From the IMG/VR virus record IMGVR_UViG_3300012324_000010: DNA of 64,000 nucleotides. One strand, written 5' to 3'. The translations under genes and the position numbers were made by a program. The notes below the pieces were generated by a model that saw nothing but the letters and a program-made list of their open reading frames with translations, did not search any database and was not told the DNA's origin. This stretch comes from a virus (Duplodnaviria > Heunggongvirae > Uroviricota > Caudoviricetes). Positions 17,495-63,887 of this stretch are shown in pieces; the first letter of the stretch is position 1; each line of letters begins with the position of its first letter.

Positions 17495-18211
17495 TTATAC
17501 ACTCAAAGCACGGTGTCCTGAAATGCATCCAGTCTTTCCTGTATCAAACTTAGAACCATCAGCATAACCTGCATTATAAGAGTTCCTATCTACAGAAGAT
17601 CCAGAAGAAGTCTTAAGCTTTCCCTTGCAATCACCCATAGCATATTCTTTAGCCTTTTCCTGATCATTGATAATGGATACTACACCATCACCATTATCAC
17701 TGCGAGCTTCAGCTTCATGTCCTCGAAGAGAATCCTTAATAGCAGAAGCATAACCTACCATGTGGGAAAGACGCTTTTTGCGAACCCCATATACTCCAGA
17801 AGGAATAGCTTTCATGGCAGAATCAACCATGGTCAAAGACGCTACAGAAAACAACATCTTCACACGCTCACGATCAATATCTCGACCATAAATATCCACA
17901 GTATTAACAGCCTTCCCTGGAATATTACTTCCCACTGCATAGCAACCTAGAGCATGAGCAATGACTGTTACTAGAATGTGCTGTTGCTTCTTATAAGGAA
18001 TAGTTGAATCAAAGACAATGCTATCTTTACCCATTTCATTATTGTTATGTGCATTGTGATCATGAACATCATTTTCTTCAATGCCATATTGAGCCATAAG
18101 CTTCATGGCACGAGATAGAGCTGCATCTCCCTCTGCTGTTCCTTGCTGATCATTAGCAAGGTTAAGAAGCTTAGAAATCTTTGCAGTAATAGTAGCACTC
18201 TTATGAGACAA
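17495..18211 (-). CDS. DUF2786-like (phage-associated) protein
   Basis: N-terminus KISKLLNLANDQQGTAEGDAALSRAMKLMAQYGI matches the K(I/V)xKLLALA...NExEAxxAL..AQ.LM signature of DUF2786. Confidence 0.5.
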   Translation of the reverse strand: MSHKSATITAKISKLLNLANDQQGTAEGDAALSRAMKLMAQYGIEENDVHDHNAHNNNEMGKDSIVFDSTIPYKKQQHILVTVIAHALGCYAVGSNIPGKAVNTVDIYGRDIDRERVKMLFSVASLTMVDSAMKAIPSGVYGVRKKRLSHMVGYASAIKDSLRGHEAEARSDNGDGVVSIINDQEKAKEYAMGDCKGKLKTSSGSSVDRNSYNAGYADGSKFDTGKTGCISGHRALSV

Positions 18212-18486
18212 GATATTCTCCTTGATATGGATGGTGTTTTTCTTTGATGTAGTTTCTACTATATACCACTGTGTTTTTCTTGTCTATCTATATCCCTCAT
18301 ATGTGGGTGGATAGGTAGCATGAATATAACTATTGACAAATATCAATCATTATGATAGAGTTGTAAGCAACTGCATTGGTTGATCAATAGCAGGAATATA
18401 TGTTTTTTCTTTGACATTTTTTCAAAGAAATGGTGGAGCTAAAAAAGACACAGGAAAAATCCTGTGTCTTTTTCTATTTATCTTTC

Positions 18487-18735
18487 TCAATGAGAAACAT
18501 CATCAGGTTGAGGGGTTTGTGAAACCCCTACATCACGAGAATAAGTATTGTGATCACTGTGGCGGGTAGGTCCAGCAAAAATAACAGCCATTAATACAAT
18601 TACAAGAATAGCGCAAGATAATACTAAAGATACAGCAAAATCCTGAGCATTATTTTCTTGTGGAGTTCTGTTTTCCCTATAATACATGTCTTGATAGTCT
18701 TTAATGCTTTGAGAACTGTCAGTATAAGTGCTCAT
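18487..18735 (-). CDS. small membrane protein
   Basis: 82 aa with one central TM helix. Confidence 0.5.
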   Translation of the reverse strand: MSTYTDSSQSIKDYQDMYYRENRTPQENNAQDFAVSLVLSCAILVIVLMAVIFAGPTRHSDHNTYSRDVGVSQTPQPDDVSH

Positions 18736-18802
18736 GATAAATGTTCCTTCACAGTTGATATTTTCTTTTTGACAACCATTATAGTTGCTTCAACTTCTTT
18801 AA

Positions 18803-19069
18803 TCAAGGAGTATTTTCTTCAGAAGTACTTTCTGGTTCTACCACTTTATCATTCATAGGATTAATGATTTTTCCTTCACTGTTTCTGATAGTGTTGCCTG
18901 GTCCAATATTATAGTCTGTGGTTTCCTCTTCTATAGGAGAGCTGTCATTGAAATTTGTTTCAAAAGTAACAGATGTTGTTTCTTTATCTCCCTCTACATC
19001 AGAACACGCACTAAGGATAATAGAGCTTATAATGATTGCAGCTGTTGCGCATTGTGACTTTGTAGACAT
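18803..19069 (-). CDS. small lipoprotein
   Basis: Signal peptide ending in lipobox LSAC. Confidence 0.55.
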   Translation of the reverse strand: MSTKSQCATAAIIISSIILSACSDVEGDKETTSVTFETNFNDSSPIEEETTDYNIGPGNTIRNSEGKIINPMNDKVVEPESTSEENTP

Positions 19070-19142
19070 GTTTTTTATTCCCTTTGGATTTTATGTATTT
19101 GTACCATTTTAACATAGAAAACATGTCTAATCATTTGATATA

Positions 19143-19159
19143 TTTGTGTCCCTTTTTAT
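19143..19159 (+). repeat. polar intergenic motif TTTGTGTCCCTTTTTAT (copy 6)
   Basis: same family. Confidence 0.8.
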
Positions 19160-19305
19160 CAAAAGAAGAATGGAATGTGAGAAATGCAGTATAGAGCACC
19201 AATACCAGTACTACAATTCCTCCTCCTCTACCACTATAATGCTCTATAAGGAAGAGCAAAAGAGCACATGTGCAAAACACACATGTGCTCAACAGCATTA
19301 TCTTT

Positions 19306-19524
19306 CTAGTTATCAAAGAAATATCCCTTGATGACATCATAGACATACCAGTATCCTACAAGAGGAATAAGCCCTGCAATATTTTCTAGATACACAGTGC
19401 CATAATAAGCTATGACACCAGGAGTGATAAGAAGAATAGCCAAGGCAACAAACACTGCAATGTTAAATGCATATTGAGATGCCTTATGTTGGATATTCTT
19501 TTCAGAATGGGTAAAAGTAGTCAT
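19306..19524 (-). CDS. small membrane protein
   Basis: 72 aa, two hydrophobic helices. Confidence 0.45.
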   Translation of the reverse strand: MTTFTHSEKNIQHKASQYAFNIAVFVALAILLITPGVIAYYGTVYLENIAGLIPLVGYWYVYDVIKGYFFDN

Positions 19525-19825
19525 TGTGGTGCTACATCCTTTTTCTTATCAGGAGTTGAACAAGTGAAATGTTCTTTTCTTGAAGAACACCTTTCACTGT
19601 AGTCACAAAAGCACCACAAGTCAATATTCACCCCATTTAGGGTGTAGTAGACACTGTTTCTGCTTGTTCCACCTGTGTATTTTCAACAGAAGAAGATTCA
19701 ACCTGATGATGAAAATAAATGGCCATCGCAGCTCCAATAGCTAGAATCCCCAGCAAAATCAAAGCACAGAGAAAGTCTTTCCCTTTTTCATTTAGTTGTT
19801 TCATAAATACTTTATCTCCTTTGTA

Positions 19826-34440: not shown

Positions 34441-35724
34441 TTAAAAGAATACCTTTTTTACTTTATCTAGGAAAGATACACTAACTTCTCCACCTGTATT
34501 AACCTTAGGTCCTACATTGGTAGAAATATTTTTCTTCTTTACAGGTGTAGAGTCATTTTTGTCCCTTGATACCCTTTCTTTGTTGGAAGTATCATTGTCT
34601 TCTTTATCTTCAGTATCATCTACTGATACTGATATATCATCTTGTGAAACTTCTCCCTCAGCTGGTTGTGGGGGTTGTATGGTATAGCCATCATCACTAG
34701 GCTCGCTGGTAGAGGTTGTGGATTGGTCAGAATCTGTGCTGCTATCTTCTGAGGAAGAAGGAAATTGAGATGAGCTACTGGGTGTAGAACTTTCTGTGTG
34801 AGAAGATGCTGTAGAAGGAGATTTATCATCTACATCCTTGTCACCATCTACATCTTTATTCCCGTTAGTTTCCTCTGGTGAAGTTGTAGAAGGTTGTGGT
34901 TCATTCTCAGAAGGATTGGGTTCATCTTCTCCTGTACTATCATCTCCTGTATTATCAACAAACACTTCCTGTCCTACTGTTTTTTCAATCCAGTCTTTGT
35001 ACCCAGAAACAGGCATGTACATAGTTCTTTTGTTTCCTACTGGATCTATTCCTTGTGGGGTTGCTCCAAAAGCAAGAACACCATAAAGTGTATCATTGAT
35101 CACAAATGGTCCTCCAGAGTCTCCCACTGTGGAGATACCATCTTTGAAGATAACAGGATTGATAGTCATTCCTGGGTTAAACTCGTCATCTTTTTCTGTC
35201 TTATGAAACATTGTTCCATCTAGAGTATTAAGATTTTCTAGTTTCTTCTTTTCACCTGGACCCCAACCATATCCTTTTCCTGGGGTATCTTTACTAATAG
35301 TACCATTGTAAAGTTTCATAGGAGTAGCATTGTCTACAGGTTTATTAAGACGAAACAACGCCATATCTCTATCTGAGGAGTAAGTCTTTACATCATCTAC
35401 TGTATAAACAGGCTGTGATTTAGCACTGGTTCCAAAAGAAATATTTGAATACCATTTATCCATTCCATCTTTAGGAATGCAGTGTTGTGCTGTCAACACC
35501 CATTGTGGAGAAATCAAAGTGCCAGTACAAGTCAAGGTATGAACTGTAGGGTTTACATTATCAATATCCTCTTTATTTTTCATAAAAATTCTTGCTACTG
35601 CACTGGTGGTGTCATTGTCAGGTGCATCTGTGGTAGAAACCATTGCTGATGCTGGTACTGCACAAGATGCAAGTGCAATAGCAGCTGTAGCAGAAGATGT
35701 ATATATTTTGCGTTTTAAAGACAT
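34441..35724 (-). CDS. secreted S1-family serine protease with S/T/D-rich linker and conserved C-terminal tail
   Basis: Signal peptide; CTGTLISPQWVLTAQHC (His), GDSGGPF (Ser); C-terminal VGPKVNTGGEVSVSFLDKVKKVFF. Confidence 0.85.
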   Translation of the reverse strand: MSLKRKIYTSSATAAIALASCAVPASAMVSTTDAPDNDTTSAVARIFMKNKEDIDNVNPTVHTLTCTGTLISPQWVLTAQHCIPKDGMDKWYSNISFGTSAKSQPVYTVDDVKTYSSDRDMALFRLNKPVDNATPMKLYNGTISKDTPGKGYGWGPGEKKKLENLNTLDGTMFHKTEKDDEFNPGMTINPVIFKDGISTVGDSGGPFVINDTLYGVLAFGATPQGIDPVGNKRTMYMPVSGYKDWIEKTVGQEVFVDNTGDDSTGEDEPNPSENEPQPSTTSPEETNGNKDVDGDKDVDDKSPSTASSHTESSTPSSSSQFPSSSEDSSTDSDQSTTSTSEPSDDGYTIQPPQPAEGEVSQDDISVSVDDTEDKEDNDTSNKERVSRDKNDSTPVKKKNISTNVGPKVNTGGEVSVSFLDKVKKVFF

Positions 35725-35895
35725 AAAAGAGCATTCCTTTTTTAGACATCATTGTGTTGTTATGCATATTTTGCACATAGCATTGTATATCTATGATACA
35801 TTTTTTCTCCTTTTATTGTCACAGGAGAAAACAATACAAAAACACCTCCATTCCTTAGAATGAGAAATAGAGGTGTTATAAACTAAATTGCAATA

Positions 35896-37185
35896 TTAGA
35901 ACAGATTTTTTATCTTAGAGAAAAATGATTTCTGCTCTACATTTCCACCAGTTTTCACTGTTGGTCCTACAGCATCATCCTCTGACTCATTGTGAATATT
36001 ATCCTCTTCTAAGACAGGTGCTGCATTGTTATTGTCTTCTGCAACATTGCCCCCTAAGGTAGTGTTTTCTACTCCATTGCCACCTAGAGTAGCGTTTCCT
36101 ACTCCATTATTACCTACAGTAGTGTTTCCTGCAACAGTTGCATCACCAACAGGGATGGCTTCAGAAGAATCTTCCTCAGGTGGGTTTATTACTGTTGCTT
36201 CAGTAATACCGCCATCATCATTATTGTGTGTCCCTTCAGATGTGGAAGCTTTCTTGGAAGATGATGGTTTGGAAGATGATGGTTTGGTTGTATGTGATGT
36301 AGAAGGAGTGGAAGATTTGTCTCCATTGGAATCATCTTCTTCAGTGGGTACTTCTGCATCAACAGTTCCACCGTCTTCTTGTGGTTGGGTGTTTCCAGAG
36401 TCTGATCCTGGAGTAGAGACAAAGCTATCACTTTGTTTAATAGTATTTTCAATCCACTCTTTGTATTGTGCTACAGGCATATACAAACCATGAGACACTT
36501 CACCTTCATCAGGAATGGTTGCCATAGACAACACTCCATATACTGTGTCATCTATGATAAATGGAGATCCAGAATCACCCTTTGCAGAATGTCCTCCATT
36601 AAAGATTACCTCATTGGTATCCATTTCTTTGAACGGTCCACCGTGAATAGCTTCTGGTGACATTGTTCCATTAAGAGTGTTGAGAGCTTTTAGTCGTGGC
36701 TCGTCCATGGGCTTTCCCCATCCATAAGCTTGACCTTGTTTTTCTTCTTGCAAGACACTATCCCAAAGTTTCAATGGTTCAACATCATTGACTGGTTTTT
36801 CCAGGTGGAATAAAGCCATATCATCCTGATTAGAATGTGTTTTAACATCATCTATCTTATATGATTGTCCATCATCAGTAGTTCCAAAAGTGACACTTCC
36901 AGAATACTTGTCTAGTCCTCCATTAACACAGTGTGCAGCAGAAAGAATCCATTGTGGAGAAATCAAAGTTCCTGTACAAGATGTAACATGCACAATTCCA
37001 CTACCATTAGCTTGCACTGCATCTAGTTCAGCTTTATCACTTAGCTGAATATGTGCTATAGCATTAGTAGTATCATTAGCTTCTGCATTTGTATCACTCA
37101 CTAGAGCTTGTGCAGGAATGGCCATAGTTGTCAATGCTAGTGCTGCTGTTGCAGAAGCTGTAGCCATTTTTGTTTTACAACCCAT
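35896..37185 (-). CDS. secreted S1-family serine protease paralog with conserved C-terminal tail
   Basis: CTGTLISPQWILSAAHC, GDSGSPF; C-terminal VGPTVKTGGNVEQKSFFSKIKNLF. Confidence 0.85.
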   Translation of the reverse strand: MGCKTKMATASATAALALTTMAIPAQALVSDTNAEANDTTNAIAHIQLSDKAELDAVQANGSGIVHVTSCTGTLISPQWILSAAHCVNGGLDKYSGSVTFGTTDDGQSYKIDDVKTHSNQDDMALFHLEKPVNDVEPLKLWDSVLQEEKQGQAYGWGKPMDEPRLKALNTLNGTMSPEAIHGGPFKEMDTNEVIFNGGHSAKGDSGSPFIIDDTVYGVLSMATIPDEGEVSHGLYMPVAQYKEWIENTIKQSDSFVSTPGSDSGNTQPQEDGGTVDAEVPTEEDDSNGDKSSTPSTSHTTKPSSSKPSSSKKASTSEGTHNNDDGGITEATVINPPEEDSSEAIPVGDATVAGNTTVGNNGVGNATLGGNGVENTTLGGNVAEDNNNAAPVLEEDNIHNESEDDAVGPTVKTGGNVEQKSFFSKIKNLF

Positions 37186-37268
37186 GAAAAATCCTTCTTT
37201 CTTTTATTATCTATCCCTCTTATGAAAAATCATGAACTCATGATTGGTAACATGTCTATTGTAGATGT

Positions 37269-38651
37269 CTACCGTGTTGCATTGTCATGGCTGGATGCAT
37301 GAGCATGGTGGGTATCTACATCATGATCATGAGTAACATCTTTTCTTACAGTGCTTTTGTTTCCATAGGCACTATCTTGTGCAACTTTTTTGTGAGAAGA
37401 GTTTTTGATTGTCTTGAGACGTTTATGCAAACTATCAAATCTCTTGCCACTTTTCCTTTCTACTTTGGAGATTATCTTTTCAGCCAAAGATGCATCAGTT
37501 CCTGCTAGAGCATGTGACTGTGCTCCACCTTGTGCTGTTGCATGTGCTGTGTTTTTACCACCAATAGATGAAGCATGTGCTGAAGAGTGTGATTTGCGTC
37601 CCTTCTGTGCATGATGGGAAGGTTTCTTATTCCCCTTCTTTGCATGTGAAGAAGGTTTCTTCCCTGCTGCTTTAGACCTGTGGTGTCCAGATGCAGGCTG
37701 AGGAGAAGATACTAGTTTCTCACCTGTGGTCTCATTGATCCACTTGCCATAAGGAGAAACAAGAGCATAAAGCACAGTATCAGTAGCCTTTTGCCCATCA
37801 TCATGAATAACACCCTGAGACAAGATTCCATAAACTTTTCCATTGATAATAAATGGAGAGCCAGAATCACCATAGGTAGACTGTCCAGAGTTTAATGTAG
37901 CACGCTGAGTTTTCATACCTGGTACAGCACTGTCAGTTTCTACTTTGGGTTGAATCTGTGCAATATCAGCAGTGAGATTTTCTGCTTCTGCAGGCACACC
38001 TTGATCATCTACATCACCCCATCCATATACAGCACCAGGGGTAGGTGATTTTACTATTTTGGAAGCAATCTTCAAAGGTTGCGCTGCAGAAGGAGTACTA
38101 AGATGAAGCAAAGAAAGATCTACCTTGTCATTATTGACAACGCTATCCACTTCAATTTTATCTGTAGATTCTGGTGTTTCCCCCAAAGTCACTTCAGAAA
38201 ATGCTTCTTGTTTATCTACACAGTGTTTTGCTGTGAGAATCCACTCAGGAGCAATGAGAACACCTGTACAAATAGTGGAACCATATCCTTGACCTGAAGA
38301 GATATCATCAGAGTCAGAGGAATCATCAGAGGAATCATCAGTAGAATCTTCCTTATTGTCCTCATCTTTTATTTCATCAGAATCATCATTGTTGTTGTCT
38401 TCTGAAGATTTTTCATCTGAAGATGATCCATCCTCTTCATTAGCATAGTTTTCTGTTTCTTTGTCCCCAGAACCAGATTCCTTATTACTATCTTCTGGGA
38501 ATGTTGTTTCAACTCTAGCAATAGCACCAACATTTTCTTGATTTTTAGGCTGAGAGCCATCAACAATAGCAAAAGCAGGTGAAGCAACAACACTTGTTGT
38601 TACCACACCTGCACATAGCGCTGCTACATATCTAGACATGTGCTTAGTCAT
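37269..38651 (-). CDS. secreted S1-family serine protease paralog with acidic pro-region and His/basic-rich C-terminus
   Basis: CTGVLIAPEWILTAKHC, GDSGSPF; lacks the VNTGG tail. Confidence 0.8.
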   Translation of the reverse strand: MTKHMSRYVAALCAGVVTTSVVASPAFAIVDGSQPKNQENVGAIARVETTFPEDSNKESGSGDKETENYANEEDGSSSDEKSSEDNNNDDSDEIKDEDNKEDSTDDSSDDSSDSDDISSGQGYGSTICTGVLIAPEWILTAKHCVDKQEAFSEVTLGETPESTDKIEVDSVVNNDKVDLSLLHLSTPSAAQPLKIASKIVKSPTPGAVYGWGDVDDQGVPAEAENLTADIAQIQPKVETDSAVPGMKTQRATLNSGQSTYGDSGSPFIINGKVYGILSQGVIHDDGQKATDTVLYALVSPYGKWINETTGEKLVSSPQPASGHHRSKAAGKKPSSHAKKGNKKPSHHAQKGRKSHSSAHASSIGGKNTAHATAQGGAQSHALAGTDASLAEKIISKVERKSGKRFDSLHKRLKTIKNSSHKKVAQDSAYGNKSTVRKDVTHDHDVDTHHAHASSHDNATR

Positions 38652-39054: not shown

Positions 39055-39238
39055 TTTCTCCTTTTATTACATGATATATATTGTGCTTGTTGATATTACA
39101 AAATCAATAGTACCTGATACTACTTATAAATGCAAGATTGTTCTACTTTTGCATAAAAAGTAAAACAGGCTGTGAGCTTGTTATTATAATATATGACCTT
39201 TTCACATTGTAAAAAAAAGATTGGATACTGAAACACCC

Positions 39239-41752
39239 ATGAAGAAAAACACTATTTTAGCTTGTACTGCTCTGTCTCTTATTCTACCTTGTGTCCCTGC
39301 TCATGCTGCTAATGATATTTACAATATATCTCCAGCTTCCACCCCACAGCAGATAAAAGACTCTACCTCTTCCCAGGTAATGACTATCCATGATAGAGAA
39401 CGATCTTCTGATCTCACTACCATTTGGATAGCACCAAGGAAAGACTGTAATGATAAAGCTGATGGTAGTGAAAGCAACCCAGTATGTGATGTGTCACAGG
39501 CTAGCTCTATTCTTAACAACCTTTACCAACAAGGAAAAGCCCAAGGTGATGTAGACATTAGATTTAAAACAGGAAAAGGTGTTGTCTATCAGCCTGAGAA
39601 TGGAAAAAGATTTGGTGATTTTACCTTCGCTCCTACAGCAGGACATGTAGTGAGGTTTATTCCTGATTGGTACAACAACATTGATGACCTAAAGAAAATC
39701 AATGCTGATAACAGAATCAATGTTAAGGGATATCCAGCTTCACAATCTAAAAACAATGACTCTGGGGTGGGTCTATCTATTTCTCCTAAATCTAATAAGG
39801 GAGGAACATATCAAATCAGTGGATTCCATTTTGACAACCTGGTAAACCCCTTAAAAGTTATCACCCCTCAAGTAACCAAAGATAAAATATCCAATAGCTC
39901 TGATCCAGAAGCTATCTACAAAAACATTAGACATTCCCAGAATGCACCCATAGGGAACATGCTTATTTCCAATAACGTTTTTGATCATGTAGGTGATGCT
40001 TACACAGCTGGTGGTGGCAACTACATCTCAGGTGCAATGAGGGTATGGGGTGCTACCAACATGCTTATCAAAGACAACACTTTCATCAATGGAAAAGCAA
40101 CCTCTAAAAACACTTCTACTTCCCATGTTATCTACAACTATATGACATCAGGAACAGTCTATGAAGGAAATACCTTCAAAAATAATAACTACTCTTTGAT
40201 CAGAGCACGTTTGAGCAATGATGATGTTATTACCGGAAATAACTTTTCTACATCTAAAAGCCTTTTTGGAAAAGACAAGGAAGTGATTGGAACATGGTAT
40301 CAAGGATACCTCTATGGTAAAGGTGGTTTAAGAGATAATAAATCTTATGCAGAATGCAAAGGTGATGGTCCTTTTGAGTTCAACAACACCTTTACAGGAA
40401 GACACTCTACTGTCATCAGAAAACTTAGACAACAACCTTATTGCACAGACAAAAAACGCATCACAGCACCTATGTTTCTAGAAGGAATACAAACTGGAGA
40501 AAAAGAATATTCCCTTCGTTGGGGAGATGCTGATACCAATGGTGATGGTGTGAAAAACTACCATGTCTATGTAGGAAAAGCTAATAAATATGGAACCCCT
40601 ACCTCTGATGTACCTGTAAAGGTAAAAACCACTTCTTCTTCTGTACATGAAGCCACAATTGATAAATCTATGTTTGACAAAGCTGGTATTAAACCAGGAG
40701 ACAACTTCCACTATTACGTGGTAGCAGAATCTACATCTGGATGGTTGTCTTCTAGAAACCAGCTAAAGACATCAGCATTCCTTGATAAAACCTACCAGGG
40801 AAGAGACAACTATAACGTAGCTAGAGTGGAATCATGGGATAGAATCACTGATGGAAAGAAGCCAGAAAAATCCACCTTCAACTATGAACTTGTCTCACAT
40901 AAGGTATCACCTAGCTATAAGAGTGTGAAAGTAAAACCAGGAGACAAGGCAACACAATCTGTGTCCCTCTCCAAGGTTCCTGCTTATACTACATTTTCCT
41001 TAAAAGATTCCACGTTCCCTAAAAAGGTATCTATAGATCCACACACAGGGAAAATCACTGCTGACACTGAAGAAGTAAAACCTGGAAAATACACAATAGA
41101 TGTTGATGTGCAATATGGTGACTGGTCTCATGATACAGCAACATTGAACCTTGAAGTAGAAGAATCAACAGCTGACAAGACAACCACTGATAAACCCTCT
41201 ACTAGCAAGCCAACCACTGATAAACCCTCTACTAGCAAGCCAACCACTGATGCTGGTGAAAAACCTTCTACTAGCACTAGTGAAAAACCAACTTCTGCTG
41301 ACAAGCCAACTAGCACATCTAATAATGTCTCTTCCAAGACATCTAGTTCTAAGCCATCATCTAGTTCTAGTGGTGTAACAACTAGCAAAAATCCTACTTC
41401 TCACACAACATCAACTAGTAAGAAGAAAACCACTTCTAGTGCTGTAGATCCTTCTACAGCACAACCTTCTTCTTCAGTAGATAAAGGAAGCTCTCATCAC
41501 TTGTCACTATGGGATAAAATAAAGTCCATCTTTTCTCCACATAAAGAAGATCAACCTTCTTCCAATGGACAAGTAAGAACCTCCTATCATGCAGTTGATA
41601 CAGAAAATAGTGAAAACAACACAGGAGATAGATATAACTATCACCCTGATGATACAAACAATGACATGGAAGAAAAAGTAGGTCCAGAAGTCAACACAGG
41701 TGGAAAAGTGGATAGATCTTTCCTAGATAAAGTTGTATCCATTGTGAGATAG
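39239..41752 (+). CDS. large secreted right-handed beta-helix (pectate-lyase-like) surface protein with S/T/P-rich stalk and conserved C-terminal tail
   Basis: Signal peptide MKKNTILACTALSLILPCVPAHA; repeated N.(F/V).(N/D)N..xG beta-helix turns; TTDKPSTSKP tandem repeat (30-bp unit at 41183-41242); C-terminal VGPEVNTGGKVDRSFLDKVVSIVR. Confidence 0.8.
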   Translation: MKKNTILACTALSLILPCVPAHAANDIYNISPASTPQQIKDSTSSQVMTIHDRERSSDLTTIWIAPRKDCNDKADGSESNPVCDVSQASSILNNLYQQGKAQGDVDIRFKTGKGVVYQPENGKRFGDFTFAPTAGHVVRFIPDWYNNIDDLKKINADNRINVKGYPASQSKNNDSGVGLSISPKSNKGGTYQISGFHFDNLVNPLKVITPQVTKDKISNSSDPEAIYKNIRHSQNAPIGNMLISNNVFDHVGDAYTAGGGNYISGAMRVWGATNMLIKDNTFINGKATSKNTSTSHVIYNYMTSGTVYEGNTFKNNNYSLIRARLSNDDVITGNNFSTSKSLFGKDKEVIGTWYQGYLYGKGGLRDNKSYAECKGDGPFEFNNTFTGRHSTVIRKLRQQPYCTDKKRITAPMFLEGIQTGEKEYSLRWGDADTNGDGVKNYHVYVGKANKYGTPTSDVPVKVKTTSSSVHEATIDKSMFDKAGIKPGDNFHYYVVAESTSGWLSSRNQLKTSAFLDKTYQGRDNYNVARVESWDRITDGKKPEKSTFNYELVSHKVSPSYKSVKVKPGDKATQSVSLSKVPAYTTFSLKDSTFPKKVSIDPHTGKITADTEEVKPGKYTIDVDVQYGDWSHDTATLNLEVEESTADKTTTDKPSTSKPTTDKPSTSKPTTDAGEKPSTSTSEKPTSADKPTSTSNNVSSKTSSSKPSSSSSGVTTSKNPTSHTTSTSKKKTTSSAVDPSTAQPSSSVDKGSSHHLSLWDKIKSIFSPHKEDQPSSNGQVRTSYHAVDTENSENNTGDRYNYHPDDTNNDMEEKVGPEVNTGGKVDRSFLDKVVSIVR

Positions 41753-46360: not shown

Positions 46361-47224
46361 TTAAATCAAGTTAGCAAATGTCATAAGAACATTCCTATCA
46401 CCTGTAGGGTAGACATCAAAATTAACAGATGGTTTGAGGTTAGCCACCTGAGATACAACCTCAAAAGTCTTATCAGCAGGGAAAGAAACCACTGCTGTTA
46501 CAAAAGTGTTCTTATTAACAGTAGAGATAATATCTACTGCTTCTTCTGCACTATCAACCTCTACACTATAAGAACGCACATCCTTATCATCTACCTCGCT
46601 AAGAACAGTGACCACAGTAGGGTTATCTTTGAGATAGTCTGTAACAAGCTTTTTAGCGTTGCCAATGTGAGAAAGATCCTCATCATATTCAGGGTTGTCA
46701 ATGATAATAACAACCTTGGAGTTTTCACCTAGATAGGCAATAAACTCAGTGTCTTTGTTTTCATTTTCATCACCAAGAACATCCCACATATTCTTCTTAA
46801 TCTGCAAGGTAGCATCACTAACAGTGATAGTCTTGTTCTTATACTTTACCTCAGTAGAGATTTCTTTAAAGAATTGTGAGCATTCTTGTGAGTTGTTATT
46901 TGAATCTTCTTGAGAGTTTGTTTCATCTGCAACAGGAAATCCAGAGAGTGGATCTTTTTCAAGTGTTGATTCCTTGTCACAGCAACAATCATCCTCACAC
47001 TTGTTGGAACAGTCTTTGTCAAAAGAAAAATTCTTTTCTAGAAGAGCAGAGACAACATCAAGAGCAGAGAAAACGTCAGGAGCGGAGTTATTGAAGTTTT
47101 TAAACCCTTCCTTAGGATCACAGACAATAAAGTTGAAATCCTCTTCAGTCGCTTTTCTAATTTGAGGAAGGTGTTCTTCTACTTGGTCAAGAATATTGTT
47201 GATCATATTCTCAGAATAAGACAT
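46361..47224 (-). CDS. acidic hypothetical protein with Cys cluster (CSNKCEDDCCCDK)
   Basis: 287-aa ORF. Confidence 0.55.
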   Translation of the reverse strand: MSYSENMINNILDQVEEHLPQIRKATEEDFNFIVCDPKEGFKNFNNSAPDVFSALDVVSALLEKNFSFDKDCSNKCEDDCCCDKESTLEKDPLSGFPVADETNSQEDSNNNSQECSQFFKEISTEVKYKNKTITVSDATLQIKKNMWDVLGDENENKDTEFIAYLGENSKVVIIIDNPEYDEDLSHIGNAKKLVTDYLKDNPTVVTVLSEVDDKDVRSYSVEVDSAEEAVDIISTVNKNTFVTAVVSFPADKTFEVVSQVANLKPSVNFDVYPTGDRNVLMTFANLI

Positions 47225-47659: not shown

Positions 47660-47824
47660 AGAAATATAATCCTTTTTTATTGAAAAACTTTTTTGTATAT
47701 TCCTTCCACTGTAGTTGTAAACAGTGACATAATCCAAATTTCAATGAAAGTCAAGGATGTAGGGTTGATTTTTTAAAATATACCAACTATCTTGTACAAA
47801 AACAAAAAATGTTACATGGGAAAA

Positions 47825-47839
47825 CCATGTCCCTTTTAG
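47825..47839 (+). repeat. polar intergenic motif CCATGTCCCTTTTAG (copy 10)
   Basis: same family. Confidence 0.7.
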
Positions 47840-48171
47840 TGATTGCAAAAATAAAAGCTCTATTTTCCATTTTAAGCCTTTGAAAACACTTGTATGGGTA
47901 TTTGTACAAATCTCTCCCCTGCAACGCTCTCACAGCCACGCAGGGTATCTATTTAGCTCATTTTGAATACAGCATCAGAAGACATCTTCTCTATATAGGA
48001 TCTTCTTCTCTTTGAGTTGAGTTGTTTCTCATCTCTTTGCACAAAAAAGCAAATCCATTTTAAGAAGATAAACTCTTTTCATGTAGGACCCTACCTAGAT
48101 CTTGTGCTCAACTTCTTAAAACGTCTCATAGAACAAAAACTTCTATCTTTCCCCTTGAAAAATCACAAAAT

Positions 48172-48193
48172 AATAACAGAATAATAACAGAAT
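48172..48193 (+). repeat. direct repeat AATAACAGAAT x2 (iteron-like)
   Basis: aataacagaataataacagaatag in a large non-coding region. Confidence 0.5.
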
Positions 48194-48318
48194 AGTATAC
48201 TTATTTTTCTCAGATTTTTCTTATGAAAATATGAACTTCAGTAAGGGGTAATGTTAAGGTTCCAAATTTTACCAATTTTCACCATATCAGCAGGTAGATT
48301 TATGTTTTTTGCAAAAAC

Positions 48319-48334
48319 TAGACAGAGCTGTCTA
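48319..48334. promoter_or_regulatory. perfect palindrome TAGACAG-AG-CTGTCTA (operator-like), copy 1
   Basis: 7-bp inverted arms with 2-bp spacer; related copies at 48710 and 51435. Confidence 0.5.
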
Positions 48335-48709
48335 TAAAGTTATACAAATGTTATCAAAATTAGTGTTTCTGTGAAATCCCTGTGAATCCTGATTTTTGAT
48401 AGATCTGTGCTTAAATCCAGAAACATTATCTGGAAGAGACATTTAAAGAATCATGGAAGTGAACATTCAAGACAACTAGCAAAGATTATCTAAAGCTTCA
48501 TGGAAATAATGTTTCAAGATCTTTACAAGTTTCAAGATAAGTTGTCTTATGTTCATCTGCAGAATCTTTTTTCAAAAGCTTCAGCAGATGTCTTAAACGG
48601 AATGCTAACGCATTCCTAGAGAAGATTACTTAGAGGTGAATCAAATTGCATAATTTTGTTTAATTTAACCCCCCTATAATTCCCCCCTAAACAATAGTCA
48701 CGTGGTAAG

Positions 48710-48725
48710 TAGACCGAGCTGTCTA
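48710..48725. promoter_or_regulatory. palindrome TAGACCGAGCTGTCTA, copy 2 (one arm mismatch)
   Basis: Same element as 48319 with A>C in the left arm. Confidence 0.45.
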
Positions 48726-48778
48726 TCAGAGATTTCACAGAATACAATATTTTCAAACTATCTCCTGGTAGAGGTATG

Positions 48779-48834
48779 TTTTTCCACCTGGGAAAACGTT
48801 TTATACACATTTTTATCCACAGGGTTGTGGATAA
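48779..48834. promoter_or_regulatory. cluster of DnaA-box-like sequences
   Basis: TTTTCCACC (48779), TTATCCACA (48813), and inverted TTGTGGATAA (48825), which is rc of TTATCCACAA. Lies in AT-rich non-coding DNA. Confidence 0.5.
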
Positions 48835-49195
48835 CTCTAAATAAGCTTTCTACCTGCTGTTATGCAAAAATGTGATCAAACTCATATAGAGGTGAAAATG
48901 ACTTATTTTTATACCTTGAGCTGCAAGTTAATCTTTTGTTAACCTAATGTTCATCTATTATTTTTATTCATAAGTGGTTTTTTGCGAAAAAATGACTCTG
49001 GGGACATGAAAATAGCACCTTTTCTAGTGGTTGAAAATAACGATTTTTGCGTGATCCACTTCACAAAAATGCCCTAAAAATTCAGCCAATTTCTCCATAT
49101 AAACGATTTTTTATAAGGTCTGCACTTTTGATGTAAAAAGTGCAAAAACTTAACATAATGGAGAAGTTTTCTTGGGTTTCTTTTCCTCAAGTATC

Positions 49196-49214
49196 ATTTT
49201 TGTGTCCCTTTTAC
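49196..49214 (+). repeat. polar intergenic motif TTTTTGTGTCCCTTTTACC (copy 11)
   Basis: same family. Confidence 0.8.
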
Positions 49215-49556
49215 CAATTGCTGTTAGTGGATAACACCTATCATTGGATATATCTTCCTACAGCAAAATCGCACCCAAAATCTATTGCTTTAAAAGTGAA
49301 TCTGAAACAGAAGATAAACACCCCTGAAAAACTAAAAAATATAGCTATACAAGGAAAGAAAAACGCATTGAAGTACAAATACTCACAAAAATACTTTCAA
49401 CCGCTTAGAAAGCAATATAGAGCTTTTTATCTCTTCTTCTTTTAAAGATCAAAAATGAGACTGATCTTCAAAAAAACCAGTCTCTTTTCCAACCTATTTG
49501 GTTGTATATTTCATGATAACCTGTGAGGAAAACACAGCTCTTGTTCCTGTGGTAGA

Positions 49557-50540
49557 TTACCACTGTCCATAGATTTCAGAATGTGCTTTAATATTCATAT
49601 TTCCAGCAATAATACCTCCATGGCAGATTGCATGATCTAGAACATGAACATTTTCGCATACCATGCTATCTCCTTGGATTGCACAGTTGCCATAAACATG
49701 TGAAGTGCCGCACACCTGGGAGTTATCTTTTACTACAGCATTGTCATAAACGTGAGATCTTCCATAGCACAATGCTTCACCTGATACTTCTGCATGTCCA
49801 TAGACAACACTGTTGTTATAGATTTTGGCGCTTCCCTTGATTACACAATGTCCATAGGCTTTAGCTTCATCTGATAGACAAGCATGATCAGAAACATGAC
49901 AATATCCTTTAAGTTGAACACTGTCTACAACAATAGAAGATCCATCAACTCGTGCATAGTCTGAAACTACAACATTTCCACAAACATGAGCATTGTCTCC
50001 TACTTGAGCATCATCTTTTACTTGTGCTTTTCCATAGACACAAGCTTTCCCACAAAGGTAAGCATAGCCATAAATATCAGCACTTCCACTGACTTTCACA
50101 CTGTCTTTGACAGTAGCCCTTTGATGCACTTGAGCATTGTCAAAGACTTGACTGTTATCTCTAATGATTGCACTGCTATAGACATGAGCATTGCCATATA
50201 CTTGTGCATTTCCTAGAACAGAAGATTTGCCTGAAACATGAGCTTTGTCATACACCTGCGCATTGTTTTTAATAGTTGCATAATCTTTTACTACTGCATT
50301 TCCATATACTTGTGCAGTGTCTTTTGCACAACTAGAACCAGAAAGAACAGCATTGTCATATACCTTGGCGTTATCAAAAACCCATGCATTATCAGAAAGG
50401 TTATGTGGTGATTCTACAAAACCTCCTTTGTCTCCCTGAGATACACCATGATCAGGAATATCTTTTAATGCTTGAATCCTGTGTAGAGTATGTCCTGAAA
50501 CAACAATGGTGTCATGGGTGAGTCTAAAATAGGTATCCAT
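49557..50540 (-). CDS. hexapeptide-repeat (left-handed beta-helix) protein
   Basis: 327 aa composed of about 45 consecutive hexads ([AS]x[VI]x[GDN]N-type, e.g. AQVYGNAVVKDYATIKNNAQVYDKAHV...). Confidence 0.65.
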   Translation of the reverse strand: MDTYFRLTHDTIVVSGHTLHRIQALKDIPDHGVSQGDKGGFVESPHNLSDNAWVFDNAKVYDNAVLSGSSCAKDTAQVYGNAVVKDYATIKNNAQVYDKAHVSGKSSVLGNAQVYGNAHVYSSAIIRDNSQVFDNAQVHQRATVKDSVKVSGSADIYGYAYLCGKACVYGKAQVKDDAQVGDNAHVCGNVVVSDYARVDGSSIVVDSVQLKGYCHVSDHACLSDEAKAYGHCVIKGSAKIYNNSVVYGHAEVSGEALCYGRSHVYDNAVVKDNSQVCGTSHVYGNCAIQGDSMVCENVHVLDHAICHGGIIAGNMNIKAHSEIYGQW

Positions 50541-63485: not shown

Positions 63486-63558
63486 GCCCCTATAGCTCAG
63501 TTGGTAGAGCAACGGACTCTTAATCCGTGGGTCGCAGGTTCGATCCCTGCTGGGGGCA
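63486..63558 (+). tRNA. tRNA-Lys (anticodon CTT)
   Basis: gcccctatagctcagttggtagagcaacggactcttaatccgtgggtcgcaggttcgatccctgctgggggca; anticodon loop CTCTTAA. Confidence 0.85.
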
Positions 63559-63708
63559 CATAGAGTCTTTACCCGTGGAAGGCTCTGAAAAACAAGGCAC
63601 TAGTGATTTGGGATTTATTTCCACCACCTCTTGTTGCTCACACGGAAAACAAAATAATGTACCCCCTCCCCAACTCCTGTGTGTTCTTGCGTGGAAGGGT
63701 GCATTTTA

Positions 63709-63782
63709 GCCCTGGTAGCTCAGCAGGATAGAGCAACCGTCTCCTAAACGGTAGGTCGAAGGTTCAAATCCTTTTCAGGGCG
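63709..63782 (+). tRNA. tRNA-Arg (anticodon CCT)
   Basis: gccctggtagctcagcaggatagagcaaccgtctcctaaacggtaggtcgaaggttcaaatccttttcagggcg; anticodon loop CTCCTAA. Confidence 0.85.
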
Positions 63783-63887
63783 CAGTTCCTATCTATCCCC
63801 ACAGAAACTTCTTATCTCTATTATTGTAAAAGAGAAGAAACTTCACAGGGGGTAAAGCTAATATTTGTTTTTGAAAAAGGAATCATC

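What the first reader, a model, noticed from the sequence alone, without database searches (positions are those of the whole stretch)
47740..49556. 1.8-kb gene-free AT-rich region with DnaA-box-like sequences, palindromes and iteron-like repeats: candidate replication origin or regulatory/ncRNA hub
This is the largest non-coding stretch in an otherwise tightly packed window. It contains:
- an iteron-like direct repeat (AATAACAGAAT x2, 48172)
- two copies of the operator-like palindrome TAGACAGAGCTGTCTA (48319, 48710)
- a cluster of DnaA-box-like sequences: TTTTCCACC at 48779, a consensus TTATCCACA at 48813, and an inverted TTGTGGATAA at 48825
- C6 homopolymer pairs (48669-48686)
- two copies of the polar motif (47825, 49196) plus the only inverted partial copy (49003)

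No dnaA or rep gene is adjacent. The region could be an origin that recruits host DnaA, a DnaA-regulated promoter region, or the locus of one or more non-coding RNAs.
Basis: seen in the sequence. Interest (0 to 1): 0.65.

Follow-up and report, generated by a model that had tools for sequence, protein, structure and literature searches.

The report
Conserved DnaA-box non-coding hub
A 1.8-kb gene-free stretch of an uncultivated huge phage (relatives about 380 kb) contains a ~950-bp non-coding core, conserved among relatives, with a tight cluster of binding sites for the host replication initiator DnaA; it is most likely a replication origin or another DnaA-dependent DNA control site, not a gene or a structured RNA.

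Summary
Window 47738-49556 has no ORF in any frame or stop-codon recoding, no Rfam match, and no gene called in the source contig or in about 20 relatives. Only part of it is constrained. A ~960-bp core (48052-49013) is more conserved than four-fold degenerate sites of the neighbouring genes. The outer ~300-540 bp drift or are replaced.

The core holds four closely spaced DnaA boxes (48779-48834). Across 15 family members they vary at the degenerate N position of TTATNCACA in 4 of 4 boxes, but at only 2 of 32 other positions (P = 2.5e-4). That pattern indicates selection for DnaA binding. Two very unstable AT-rich tracts are present, one a tandem 11-mer. Nine blocks of 14-43 nt are invariant, including a palindrome and a C6-N7-C6 motif. 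The minimum of cumulative third-codon-position GC skew over 73 kb lies right next to the gap.

There is no covariation, no internal terminator, no conserved small ORF, no DnaA-trio and no recognisable rep gene nearby.

Best reading: a cis-acting DNA element using host DnaA, most likely a replication origin (about 0.45). Rivals are a T5 iss-like DnaA-binding site, a regulatory region, and a non-coding RNA. It is a new member of a known kind.

The parts
47738..49556 (.). Whole gene-free gap between the 327-aa beta-solenoid gene (49557-50540, minus) and the 116/143-aa membrane-protein gene (47306-47659/47737, minus)
   Evidence: Stops in all six frames under every recoding. No gene called in the source contig or relatives. 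No Rfam match.
48052..49013 (.). Conserved non-coding core, the constrained part of the gap
   Evidence: Identity is 92-97% in close relatives and 82% in L023/L031, where the solenoid gene is 68%. It is more conserved than four-fold sites of neighbouring genes in every comparison. Nine invariant blocks of 14-43 nt across 14 distinct sequences. Single copy in the window.
48826..48834 (-). DnaA box A (TTATCCACA; TTATTCACA in 9 relatives)
   Evidence: Varies only at position 5.
48813..48821 (+). DnaA box B (TTATCCACA), 4 bp from box A (3 bp in L023/L031), forming the palindrome TTATCCACAGGGTTGTGGATAA
48801..48809 (+). DnaA box C (TTATACACA; position 5 is A, T or G in relatives), 3 bp from box B
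48779..48787 (+). DnaA-like box D (TTTTCCACC, two mismatches; TTTTTCACC in L023/L031), inside the invariant inverted repeat TTTTCC-CAGGT-GGAAAA
48161..48193 (+). Three tandem AT-rich 11-mers (AATCACAAAAT, AATAACAGAAT, AATAACAGAAT). Two perfect copies plus one degenerate copy are kept in all relatives, shifted by one unit in L023/L031.
48135..48235 (.). Least stable duplex of the region, candidate unwinding element 1
   Evidence: Nearest-neighbour stability profile: top 0.01-0.03% of the 64-kb window.
48928..48990 (.). Second unstable AT-rich tract, about 100 bp from the DnaA boxes and almost invariant; candidate unwinding element 2. Contains TTATTTTTATTCATAA and the palindrome TTTTTTGCGAAAAAA.
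48319..48334 (.). Palindrome 1, TAGACAGAGCTGTCTA, invariant in 14 distinct sequences
48710..48725 (.). Palindrome 2, TAGACCGAGCTGTCTA (one mismatch to palindrome 1), directly followed by the invariant CAGAGATTTCACAGAATACAA
48655..48697 (.). Longest invariant block (43 nt) with CCCCCCTA repeated at a 13-nt period (C6-N7-C6)
   Evidence: The exact 22-mer retrieved only family members.
48599..48616 (.). Invariant perfect 7-bp hairpin/palindrome GGAATGC-TAAC-GCATTCC
48554..48590 (.). Long imperfect palindrome CATCTGC...TTTTTTCAAAAG...GCAGATG
48441..48519 (+). Two ~32-nt direct repeats at a 47-nt period (ATTTAAAGAATCATGGAAGTGAACATTCAAGA and ATCTAAAGCTTCATGGAAATAATGTTTCAAGA), with TCTTGAA repeats nearby
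   Evidence: family D2.
48367..48382 (.). One arm of a 16-nt, 94% inverted repeat (TTCTGTGAAATCCCTG). The partner is at 48727-48742.
   Evidence: I8.
48267..48298 (.). One arm of a 32-nt inverted repeat containing CAGCAGGTAGA. The partner, at 48849-48880, contains TCTACCTGCTG and lies in an invariant block.
   Evidence: I2, D1.
48083..48094 (.). Small hairpin GTAGG-AC-CCTAC at the downstream edge of the core. A 1.7-kb TnpB-carrying insertion sits in its loop in relative L024.
49457..49484 (-). Intrinsic terminator of the solenoid gene; marks the upstream end of any minus-strand transcript of the gap
   Evidence: Conserved in close relatives.
47828..47846 (+). Polar motif copy 1 (TGTCCCTTTTAGTGATTGC), preceded by the hairpin 47814-47830
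49197..49221 (+). Polar motif copy 2 (TTTTTGTGTCCCTTTTACCAATTGC)
47853..47907 (.). Left arm of a 55-nt, 78% inverted repeat that brackets the core. The right arm is at 49373-49427. The left arm is missing in relatives that carry an extra gene here, so it is not essential.

Best explanation
The gap contains a ~950-bp cis-acting DNA element (48052-49013) of an uncultivated huge phage. The source contig is 232 kb and relatives are 363-382 kb. The element works as double-stranded DNA, not through a product.

Shown:
- It is non-coding.
- It is single-copy in the window.
- It is under purifying selection.
- It carries four closely spaced DnaA boxes whose pattern of evolution matches the DnaA recognition consensus.

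Inferred: host DnaA binds the head-to-tail boxes D-C-B and the inverted box A. Together with unidentified phage or host proteins bound to the invariant palindromes and repeats, it opens one of the two unstable AT-rich tracts. These are 48928-48990, about 100 bp away, or the tandem 11-mers at 48161-48193. The opened DNA then loads the replicative helicase. On this reading the element is a replication origin of the plasmid/P1 type, in which host DnaA acts as a cofactor, rather than a chromosomal oriC copy.
For: (1) Non-coding:
- Stops in all frames under all recodings.
- No conserved small ORF.
- No gene called in about 20 related contigs.

(2) Constraint:
- Core identity is 0.96 / 0.93 / 0.93 / 0.82 against four-fold-site identity of 0.85 / 0.87 / 0.83 / 0.77 in the neighbouring genes, for L020 / L027 / L034 / L023.
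- The outer parts of the gap drift or are replaced.
- Nine invariant blocks.

(3) DnaA boxes:
- Three TTATNCACA boxes in 34 bp, never reached in 300 randomisations.
- Across 15 family members the N position varies in 4 of 4 boxes, other positions in 2 of 32, and spacers in 15 of 35. Fisher P = 2.5e-4.
- L042 breaks the A/B hairpin pairing yet keeps both boxes within the consensus.
- The same 22-nt double box recurs inside DnaA-box clusters of 11 unrelated viral contigs.

(4) Unwinding candidates:
- 48135-48235 is in the top 0.01-0.03% least stable DNA of the window. 48928-48968 is in the top 0.3-1.3%.

(5) Strand asymmetry:
- Cumulative G3-C3 falls steadily from 0 to -472 over 1-46 kb. It reaches its minimum at 46.2-47.7 kb, then stays flat or rises slightly to 73 kb.
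- The best orientation-corrected breakpoint is at 46.3-48.6 kb, with a step of +0.16. Permutation P = 0.014, or below 0.001 for the fixed gap position. Without the solenoid gene P = 0.027.

(6) DNA rather than RNA:
- Covariation term +2.3, with only 8 of 259 pairs showing double changes.
- Similar folding z-scores on both strands, -5.4 and -4.4, as expected for DNA palindromes.

(7) An IS insertion (L024) or an extra gene (L023, L031, L034-37) separates the core from the downstream genes in successful lineages. The core is therefore not a leader of those genes.
Against: - Only 3-4 boxes are present. No DnaA-trio or GC cluster lies beside them.
- There are no classical iterons. Repeats are pairs or a 3 x 11-mer, and repeat density is only modestly above chance.
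- No initiator, DnaA, helicase loader or ParAB gene was recognised within 64 kb. Most neighbours are unannotatable, so this is weak evidence.
- The skew signal appears only at third codon positions. All-position skew and intergenic skew do not switch at the gap, and the right arm is near zero rather than clearly positive.
- Gene orientation does not diverge at the gap.
- The strongly strand-biased polar motif stays on the + strand on both sides. That would argue against a bidirectional origin if the motif is replication-oriented.
- Phage T5 shows that a conserved, repeat-rich, DnaA-box-bearing untranslated region can exist away from the mapped origins.
- The whole replicon could not be read, so a genome-wide skew minimum is untested.
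Confidence: 0.45

Rival explanations
1. A T5-iss-like or DnaA-capturing element. The boxes bind host DnaA not to start phage replication but to hold or pause the entering genome at the membrane (staged injection). Alternatively they titrate or hijack DnaA and so disturb host initiation. The other conserved repeats bind phage pre-early proteins.
For: - The T5 untranslated Repeat Region 3 is 1.2 kb and more conserved than the neighbouring ORFs. [quoted passage not shown] The T5 origins map elsewhere.
- Here boxes B-C are 3 bp apart and A-B are 4 or 3 bp apart. The architecture is a similar nest of pairs.
- The surroundings look like a host-takeover or accessory region: small unknown genes, an NT5C-family 5'-nucleotidase 3 kb away, and Ltp-type exclusion lipoproteins.
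- The one-strand polar motif across 73 kb suggests a genome with a built-in polarity.
Against: - The T5 model itself is an untested proposal.
- There is no sequence similarity to any phage record.
- There are 4 boxes, not 8, and no duplicated IR-spacer-IR module with a 52-bp spacer.
- No A1/A2-like genes were recognised. The NT5C protein does not hit T5 by tblastn.
- Contig ends near the gap are scattered (47951, 48107, 48198, 48437, 49471) rather than at one coordinate. Large contigs place the gap at different internal positions. So there is no sign of a physical terminus.
- This reading does not explain the GC3-skew minimum.
Confidence: 0.2
2. A transcriptional control region. Operators (the two TAGACAG-N-CTGTCTA palindromes and other inverted repeats) and DnaA acting as a transcription factor regulate promoters for the downstream minus-strand gene block or for transcripts arising in the gap.
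For: - The palindromes contain TAGACA, a -35-like hexamer, in both directions.
- The gap lies between an upstream terminator (49457-49484) and the next gene block on the same strand.
- DnaA regulates promoters in bacteria, and closely spaced box pairs are typical of such sites (abstract of PMC11317965).
- Polar-motif copies sit on both flanks.
Against: - Sigma-70-type promoter matches are not enriched: 6 found against 9.7 expected, all weak, and the candidates are not conserved in L023/L031.
- The core is about 400 bp or more from the downstream start codon. It is separated from it by an IS or an extra gene in several lineages.
- About 950 bp of constrained DNA is far more than a promoter-operator region needs.
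- The part immediately upstream of the gene (47738-48051) is the least conserved.
Confidence: 0.2
3. One or more non-coding RNAs, either a long structured RNA or several small ones, are transcribed from the core.
For: - Folding energy is well below shuffled controls on both strands: z = -5.4 on the minus strand and -4.4 on the plus strand.
- Invariant hairpins are present, for example GGAATGC-TAAC-GCATTCC.
- One terminal helix (about 48048-48115) shows a few compensatory changes.
- Terminator-like hairpins lie at both ends of the gap.
Against: - No Rfam family matches even at E <= 10.
- RNAalifold gives a covariation term of +2.3. Only 8 of 259 pairs have double changes and many are broken.
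- The similar z-scores on both strands point to DNA palindromes.
- The region is more AT-rich than its surroundings, unlike known large structured RNAs.
- No terminator lies inside the core.
- The only helix with covariation is the one split by the IS in L024.
- The box substitution pattern fits protein recognition, not pairing.
Confidence: 0.08

Closest known systems
DnaA-box-assisted origins of plasmids and phage-plasmids (P1 oriR, F, RK2, pSC101, R6K type; named from established knowledge, not compared by sequence here)
   Same: A non-coding region of several hundred bp. It combines a few closely spaced consensus DnaA boxes, an AT-rich easily melted tract with short tandem repeats, and further repeats or palindromes for an element-specific protein.
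   Different: There is no array of 17-22-bp iterons and no adjacent rep gene was recognised. The element sits in a ~380-kb phage-like genome of an unidentified host. The distance from the boxes to the tandem 11-mers is about 600 bp. There is no sequence similarity to any plasmid record.
Bacterial chromosomal oriC, Firmicutes type (DnaA-box clusters, DnaA-trio, DUE; PMC7561715)
   Same: The TTATNCACA boxes meet the usual cluster criterion of at least 3 boxes less than 100 bp apart. AT-rich unwinding candidates are present, and a local minimum of cumulative GC3 skew lies beside the element.
   Different: There is no DnaA-trio or GC cluster next to the boxes. There are only 3-4 boxes, against 5-19 per sub-origin in clostridia. 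There are no dnaA or dnaN neighbours.
Phage T5 untranslated Repeat Region 3, the proposed injection stop signal (Davison, bioRxiv 10.1101/866236)
   Same: It is a 1-2-kb untranslated region, more conserved than nearby ORFs. [quoted passage not shown]
   Different: T5 has 8 boxes in two copies of an IR-spacer-IR module with a fixed 52-bp spacer, located in the terminal repeat. Here there are 4 boxes in one cluster and no duplicated module, and the terminus position is unknown. There is no sequence homology, and the hosts differ (E. coli for T5, unidentified here).
DnaA-titrating or DnaA-inactivating loci (E. coli datA, B. subtilis DnaA-box clusters; from established knowledge and PMC12371093)
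   Same: A small cluster of high-affinity boxes outside a chromosomal origin.
   Different: Those loci are host chromosomal. They do not come with ~900 bp of additional invariant non-coding sequence.

Membership tests
Chromosomal-type oriC (DnaA-dependent origin) | Cluster of at least 3 DnaA boxes (TTWTNCACA, at most 1 mismatch) spaced less than 100 bp apart | tested here: met
   Three perfect TTATNCACA boxes lie in 34 bp, plus one two-mismatch box 13 bp away. None of 300 randomisations reached this.
Chromosomal-type oriC (DnaA-dependent origin) | DnaA-trio array (3'-[G/A]A[T/A]-5', more than 3 repeats) preceded by a GC cluster next to a box | tested here: not met
   The only WAR/YTW runs of at least 4 triplets are at 48955 and 49433. 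Neither is adjacent to a box or a GC cluster. The background rate is 0.34 per kb.
Chromosomal-type oriC (DnaA-dependent origin) | AT-rich DNA unwinding element adjacent to the boxes | tested here: inconclusive
   Unstable tracts lie at 48928-48990, about 100 bp from box A, and at 48135-48235, about 550 bp from box D. No superhelical-stress (SIDD) calculation or experiment was done.
Chromosomal-type oriC (DnaA-dependent origin) | Position at the minimum of cumulative GC skew of the replicon | tested here: inconclusive
   The cumulative GC3 skew minimum over 73 kb is at 46.2-47.7 kb (P = 0.014). All-position and intergenic skew do not switch, and only about 20-30% of the replicon could be read.
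Chromosomal-type oriC (DnaA-dependent origin) | Linkage to dnaA/dnaN | tested here: not met
   No such domains were found in the window ORFs of at least 100 aa that were scanned (most of them).
Iteron-type plasmid/phage origin (P1 oriR-like) | Array of at least 3-5 direct repeats of about 17-22 bp (iterons) | tested here: not met
   Only a 3 x 11-mer AT-rich tandem, one pair of ~32-nt repeats, and several two-copy direct or inverted pairs were found.
Iteron-type plasmid/phage origin (P1 oriR-like) | DnaA boxes plus an AT-rich region in the same non-coding block | tested here: met
Iteron-type plasmid/phage origin (P1 oriR-like) | Adjacent gene for the cognate initiator (Rep) | tested here: inconclusive
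   Neighbours have no Pfam or PHROG replication domains, but most are unannotatable. The AlphaFold model of the 287-aa neighbour was too poor to use, with pLDDT 44.
Iteron-type plasmid/phage origin (P1 oriR-like) | Autonomous replication of the cloned fragment, or replication intermediates mapping to it | not testable with these tools
   Needs experiment or read-depth data.
T5-type injection stop / Repeat Region 3 | Large untranslated region, more conserved than neighbouring ORFs, with nested repeats, inverted repeats and palindromes | tested here: met
   Definition.
T5-type injection stop / Repeat Region 3 | DnaA boxes in pairs separated by 3 bp; eight boxes in two IR-spacer-IR modules with a 52-bp spacer | tested here: not met
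   Pairs at 3-4 bp spacing are present, but there are only 4 boxes in one cluster and no duplicated module.
T5-type injection stop / Repeat Region 3 | Location in a terminal repeat beside pre-early genes (dmp, A1, A2) | not testable with these tools
   Termini are unknown. Contig ends near the gap are scattered. An NT5C-family gene lies 3 kb away but has no tblastn hit to T5.
Structured non-coding RNA (Rfam families; large ornate RNAs) | Match to a covariance model, or covariation supporting a conserved fold | tested here: not met
   No Rfam match at the gathering threshold or at E <= 10. The covariation term is +2.3 and 8 of 259 pairs have double changes.
Protein-coding gene missed by the standard code | Long open frame under TAG, TGA or TAA reassignment, or a conserved small ORF | tested here: not met
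   The longest frame is at most 489 nt under any reassignment. All small ORFs are broken in relatives. The one exception, a 36-aa frame, loses its ATG and shows 10 non-synonymous against 2 synonymous changes in L023.

The most novel reading that the evidence does not exclude
The element may be a hub through which a huge phage captures host DnaA for something other than starting its own replication. One possibility is a T5-like checkpoint that holds the entering 380-kb genome at the membrane. Another is a DnaA sink that shuts down host initiation. In either case the invariant palindromes and the C6-N7-C6 block would be sites for unknown phage proteins, and the one-strand polar motif would be part of the same genome-polarity system.
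Probability: 0.15. Interest if true: 0.75.

Novelty: new member of a known kind. Interest (0 to 1): 0.5.

Why it matters
Huge phages of 200-700 kb are known almost only from metagenomes. How their replication starts has been inferred only from GC-skew shapes, and the survey of huge phages (PMC7162821) does not mention DnaA.

This finding gives a defined ~950-bp sequence with DnaA boxes that are visibly under selection. It is therefore a concrete, clonable candidate for the origin, or for another point of contact between a huge phage and the host initiator.

It can be tested directly by read-depth profiling of existing high-coverage samples, by DnaA binding assays and by plasmid replication assays. 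If it is not an origin, it would extend the unexplained T5-type DnaA-box region to a very different phage group. That would suggest a more general phage use of DnaA.

Tried and rejected
- Recoded or missed gene: rejected.
- Known RNA family: none found.
- Large structured RNA: no covariation.
- Mobile element bracketed by the 55-nt inverted repeat: rejected. All relatives keep the core, and the left arm is simply absent where an extra gene sits.
- Repeated genomic element: rejected. Apart from the polar motif, nothing in the gap recurs in the window.
- Similarity to known phages or plasmids: none.
- Family members in IMG/VR or GTDB genomes by exact invariant motif: none. The metagenome scan gave only close relatives at 88-97% identity, so no deep comparison was possible.
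- Distant solenoid-gene homologues in IMG/VR: no DnaA-box cluster nearby.
- Neighbours of DnaA-box clusters in 11 unrelated viral contigs: uninformative.
- Host identification through the O-acetyltransferase gene: failed.
- Structure prediction of the 287-aa neighbour, to look for a Rep-like fold: pLDDT 44, unusable, so no fold search was run.
- By-eye checks for parS, dif, Spo0A, LexA (Cheo) and cre sites: nothing conserved. These rest on remembered consensus sequences and are not formal tests.
- The apparent cumulative GC-skew maximum at 15-22 kb: explained by gene orientation. It disappears at third codon positions.
Full report
**What the window is**

The 64-kb window comes from a large phage-like genome. 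It carries the following:
- eight scattered tRNA genes;
- an RIIA homologue, an SNF2 helicase and an HNH homing endonuclease;
- a TnpB gene;
- many small unannotatable genes, plus surface and exclusion-type genes such as Ltp, Rib and trypsin-like proteins.

Exact protein look-up places the window on a 231,935-bp ENA contig. Homologues of a flanking gene lie on contigs of 363-382 kb. No isolate phage or plasmid resembles it. The host was not identified. Gram-positive-type surface domains and Shine-Dalgarno sequences suggest a Firmicute, but that is inference.

**Checking the observation**

- The second palindrome has one mismatch.
- The 'iteron' is two perfect copies plus one degenerate copy of an AT-rich 11-mer.
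- A third consensus DnaA box, TTATACACA at 48801, had been missed.

The stretch is truly non-coding. Each frame has 5-17 stops of each type, and no single stop-codon reassignment opens more than 489 nt. Gene callers found nothing here in the source contig or in any relative. Every small ORF is interrupted in relatives. The only frame that stays open, 36 aa at 48332-48442, loses its ATG in L023/L031. It also shows 10 non-synonymous against 2 synonymous changes (read from the alignment).

The DnaA-box cluster is not a chance event. Three TTATNCACA boxes lie in 34 bp, and none of 300 randomised windows reached three in 60 bp. 'AT-rich' is modest, with GC 0.32-0.36 against roughly 0.33-0.46 elsewhere in the window. 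The density of repeats in the core is only modestly above chance.

**Conservation**

About 20 related contigs keep a gap of 1.8-2.1 kb at the same place, but only part of it is constrained.
- Window 48052-49013 aligns at 92-97% in close relatives. It aligns at 82% in the most distant ones (L023, L031), where the upstream solenoid gene is only 68% identical.
- The two outer parts, 49014-49556 and 47738-48051, are less conserved, unalignable or replaced.
- Using four-fold degenerate sites of the four neighbouring genes as a neutral yardstick, the core is more conserved in every comparison. The values are 0.96 vs 0.85, 0.93 vs 0.87, 0.93 vs 0.83 and 0.82 vs 0.77.
- Fourteen distinct sequences share nine invariant blocks of 14-43 nt. 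These include palindrome 1, the GGAATGC-TAAC-GCATTCC hairpin, a 43-nt block with CCCCCCTA repeated 13 nt apart, the sequence next to palindrome 2, and part of an AT-rich tract.
- None of these elements recurs elsewhere in the window.

In L024 a 1.7-kb TnpB-carrying insertion sits in the loop of a small hairpin at about 48088. In L023, L031 and L034-37 an extra 240-249-aa gene, a paralogue of the 287-aa neighbour, lies between the core and the next gene. The core therefore does not have to be contiguous with the downstream genes.

**DNA or RNA?**

Rfam gives nothing, even at E <= 10. Both strands fold better than shuffled controls to a similar degree, with z = -5.4 and -4.4. That is what DNA palindromes produce. 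RNAalifold on ten sequences gives a covariation term of +2.3. Only 8 of 259 predicted pairs show a change on both sides, and many are broken. The one helix with a few compensatory changes is the one split by the IS in L024. No intrinsic terminator lies inside the core. The region is more AT-rich than its surroundings. I conclude that the constraint acts on double-stranded DNA.

**The DnaA boxes**

Four boxes lie between 48779 and 48834:
- D: TTTTCCACC, plus strand;
- C: TTATACACA, plus strand;
- B: TTATCCACA, plus strand;
- A: TTATCCACA, minus strand.

Start-to-start spacings are 22, 12 and 13 bp. Among 15 family members, position 5 (the N of TTATNCACA) varies in all four boxes. Only 2 of the other 32 box positions vary, while 15 of 35 flanking and spacer positions do. 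Fisher P is 2.5e-4, or 0.003 without box D. L042 carries TTATTCACA opposite TTATACACA. This breaks the A/B hairpin pairing but keeps both boxes within the consensus. This is the signature of selection for recognition by DnaA or a protein with the same specificity.

The exact 22-nt double box TTATCCACAGGGTTGTGGATAA also occurs in 11 unrelated IMG/VR contigs, always inside clusters of 2-22 boxes. DnaA-box clusters are therefore a recurring feature of viral contigs. Their gene neighbours told me nothing.

**Evidence bearing on an origin**

In favour:
- The least stable 40-100 bp of the region is 48135-48235, which contains the tandem 11-mers. It ranks in the top 0.01-0.03% of the whole window. 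A second, almost invariant unstable tract at 48928-48990 lies about 100 bp from box A.
- After removing the effect of gene orientation, third-codon-position GC skew has its best breakpoint at 46.3-48.6 kb, with a step of +0.16. This used the window plus 9.3 kb of the same contig. Permutation P is 0.014 for the best breakpoint and below 0.001 for the fixed gap position. Without the repeat-rich solenoid gene, breakpoints at 46-53 kb are about equally good (P = 0.027).
- Cumulative G3-C3 falls steadily from 0 to -472 over the first 46 kb. It reaches its minimum at 46.2-47.7 kb and then stays flat or rises slightly. The direction, negative to the left, is that expected at an origin.
- The apparent maximum of ordinary cumulative skew at 15-22 kb is an effect of gene orientation and vanishes at third positions.

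Against:
- All-position and intergenic skew do not switch at the gap, and the right arm is near zero.
- Genes do not diverge from the gap.
- No DnaA-trio or GC cluster adjoins the boxes.
- There is no iteron array.
- No replication gene was recognised within 64 kb.
- The polar motif keeps its strand on both sides.

**Closest described analogue**

Davison's analysis of phage T5 (bioRxiv 10.1101/866236) describes a 1.2-kb untranslated 'Repeat Region 3'. It is more conserved than the surrounding ORFs and packed with nested repeats, inverted repeats and palindromes. It carries consensus and near-consensus DnaA boxes in pairs 3 bp apart. It lies in the terminal repeat, away from the mapped origins, and is proposed, without experimental proof, to stop DNA injection by binding membrane-bound DnaA.

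The resemblance in kind is striking. However, the defining details are not met: T5 has eight boxes in two IR-spacer-IR modules with a 52-bp spacer. There is no sequence similarity. The location relative to genome ends cannot be tested here. Contig ends near the gap are scattered rather than fixed, and large contigs place the gap at different internal positions. An NT5C-family nucleotidase gene 3 kb away has no tblastn hit to T5.

**Verdict**

The element is a new sequence family of a known kind. It is a cis-acting, DnaA-box-bearing non-coding DNA region.

I rate the readings as follows:
- replication origin that uses host DnaA as a cofactor, together with unidentified proteins bound to the invariant palindromes and repeats: about 0.45;
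- T5-like DnaA capture or titration site: about 0.2;
- transcriptional control region: about 0.2;
- non-coding RNA: below 0.1.

The survey of huge phages inferred replication mode only from GC-skew shapes and does not mention DnaA (PMC7162821). A defined candidate sequence therefore has practical value. The decisive tests are whole-replicon skew, read-depth profiles and terminus mapping on the existing 380-kb assemblies, followed by DnaA binding and plasmid replication assays.

Noticed in passing
window 5304, 11685, 14443, 17414, 19147, 20801, 27588, 30838, 47828, 49203, 59195, 61210; plus 68001 and 72769 in the extension (L039): The polar motif (TTT)TTG-TGTCCCTTTTW occurs in 14 copies, all on the + strand, against about 1.7 expected. 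The shorter cores are equally one-sided: TGTCCCTT 24:1 and TTGTGTCCC 18:0. Copies are mostly intergenic, often just after a terminator hairpin, and do not depend on the orientation of neighbouring genes. The motif does not change strand across the gap. Its function is unknown; candidates are a strand-specific nick site, a Chi-like signal, a priming site or a packaging signal.
   Followed up: partly
window 10371-11546 (+); L024 5532-7127 and 9646-11540; L027 9856-12049; L034 376-2339; L038 2135-4181: TnpB (IS605 OrfB / Cas12f-like) genes, often paired with a serine resolvase (IS607-like), sit at different places in different family members. One insertion lies in a hairpin loop inside the studied gap (window about 48088). 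These are active insertion sequences in a huge-phage lineage.
   Followed up: partly
L007-L017 (IMG/VR contigs): The exact 22-nt head-to-head DnaA double box TTATCCACAGGGTTGTGGATAA occurs in 11 unrelated viral contigs, within clusters of up to 22 DnaA boxes (for example L012 and L017, with tandem TTATCCACAGGG units). DnaA-box clusters seem widespread in viral contigs and are largely unstudied.
   Followed up: partly
L023 6676-7395, L031 6664-7389, L034 5940-6689, L035 6640-7389, L032 778-1497 (corresponds to window about 47740-48050): Some relatives carry an extra 239-249-aa gene, a paralogue (about 47% identity) of the 287-aa gene at window 46361-47224. It sits between the conserved core and the next gene. 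The window lacks this gene.
   Followed up: partly
window 47853-47907 and 49373-49427: A 55-nt inverted repeat (78% complementary) brackets the core at a distance of 1465 nt. The two arms are diverged copies of one sequence. The left arm is absent in relatives with the extra gene.
   Followed up: yes
window 34441-38651 (-): Three tandem paralogous trypsin-like serine protease genes (427, 429 and 460 aa) lie next to an 843-aa Rib-domain surface protein (39221-41752). This is unusual cargo for a phage.
   Followed up: no
window 18211-19719: This is the second largest stretch (1.5 kb) without an ORF of at least 100 aa. It contains a polar-motif copy (19147) and a weak DnaA-like box (19269). Its conservation was not examined.
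   Followed up: no
extension beyond the window (L039 5350-6423, equivalent to window 66862-67935): A polynucleotide kinase-phosphatase-like gene (KTI12 / AAA_33 / HAD_PNKP) lies close to the tRNA genes at 63486-63783. This suggests a tRNA-repair function.
   Followed up: no
contig ends mapping to window 47951, 48107, 48198, 48437, 49471 (L028, L029, L030, L032, L019): Several short, low-coverage metagenomic contigs break inside or next to the gap, at scattered positions. This is more likely assembly fragmentation at a variable or AT-rich spot than a physical genome end.
   Followed up: partly
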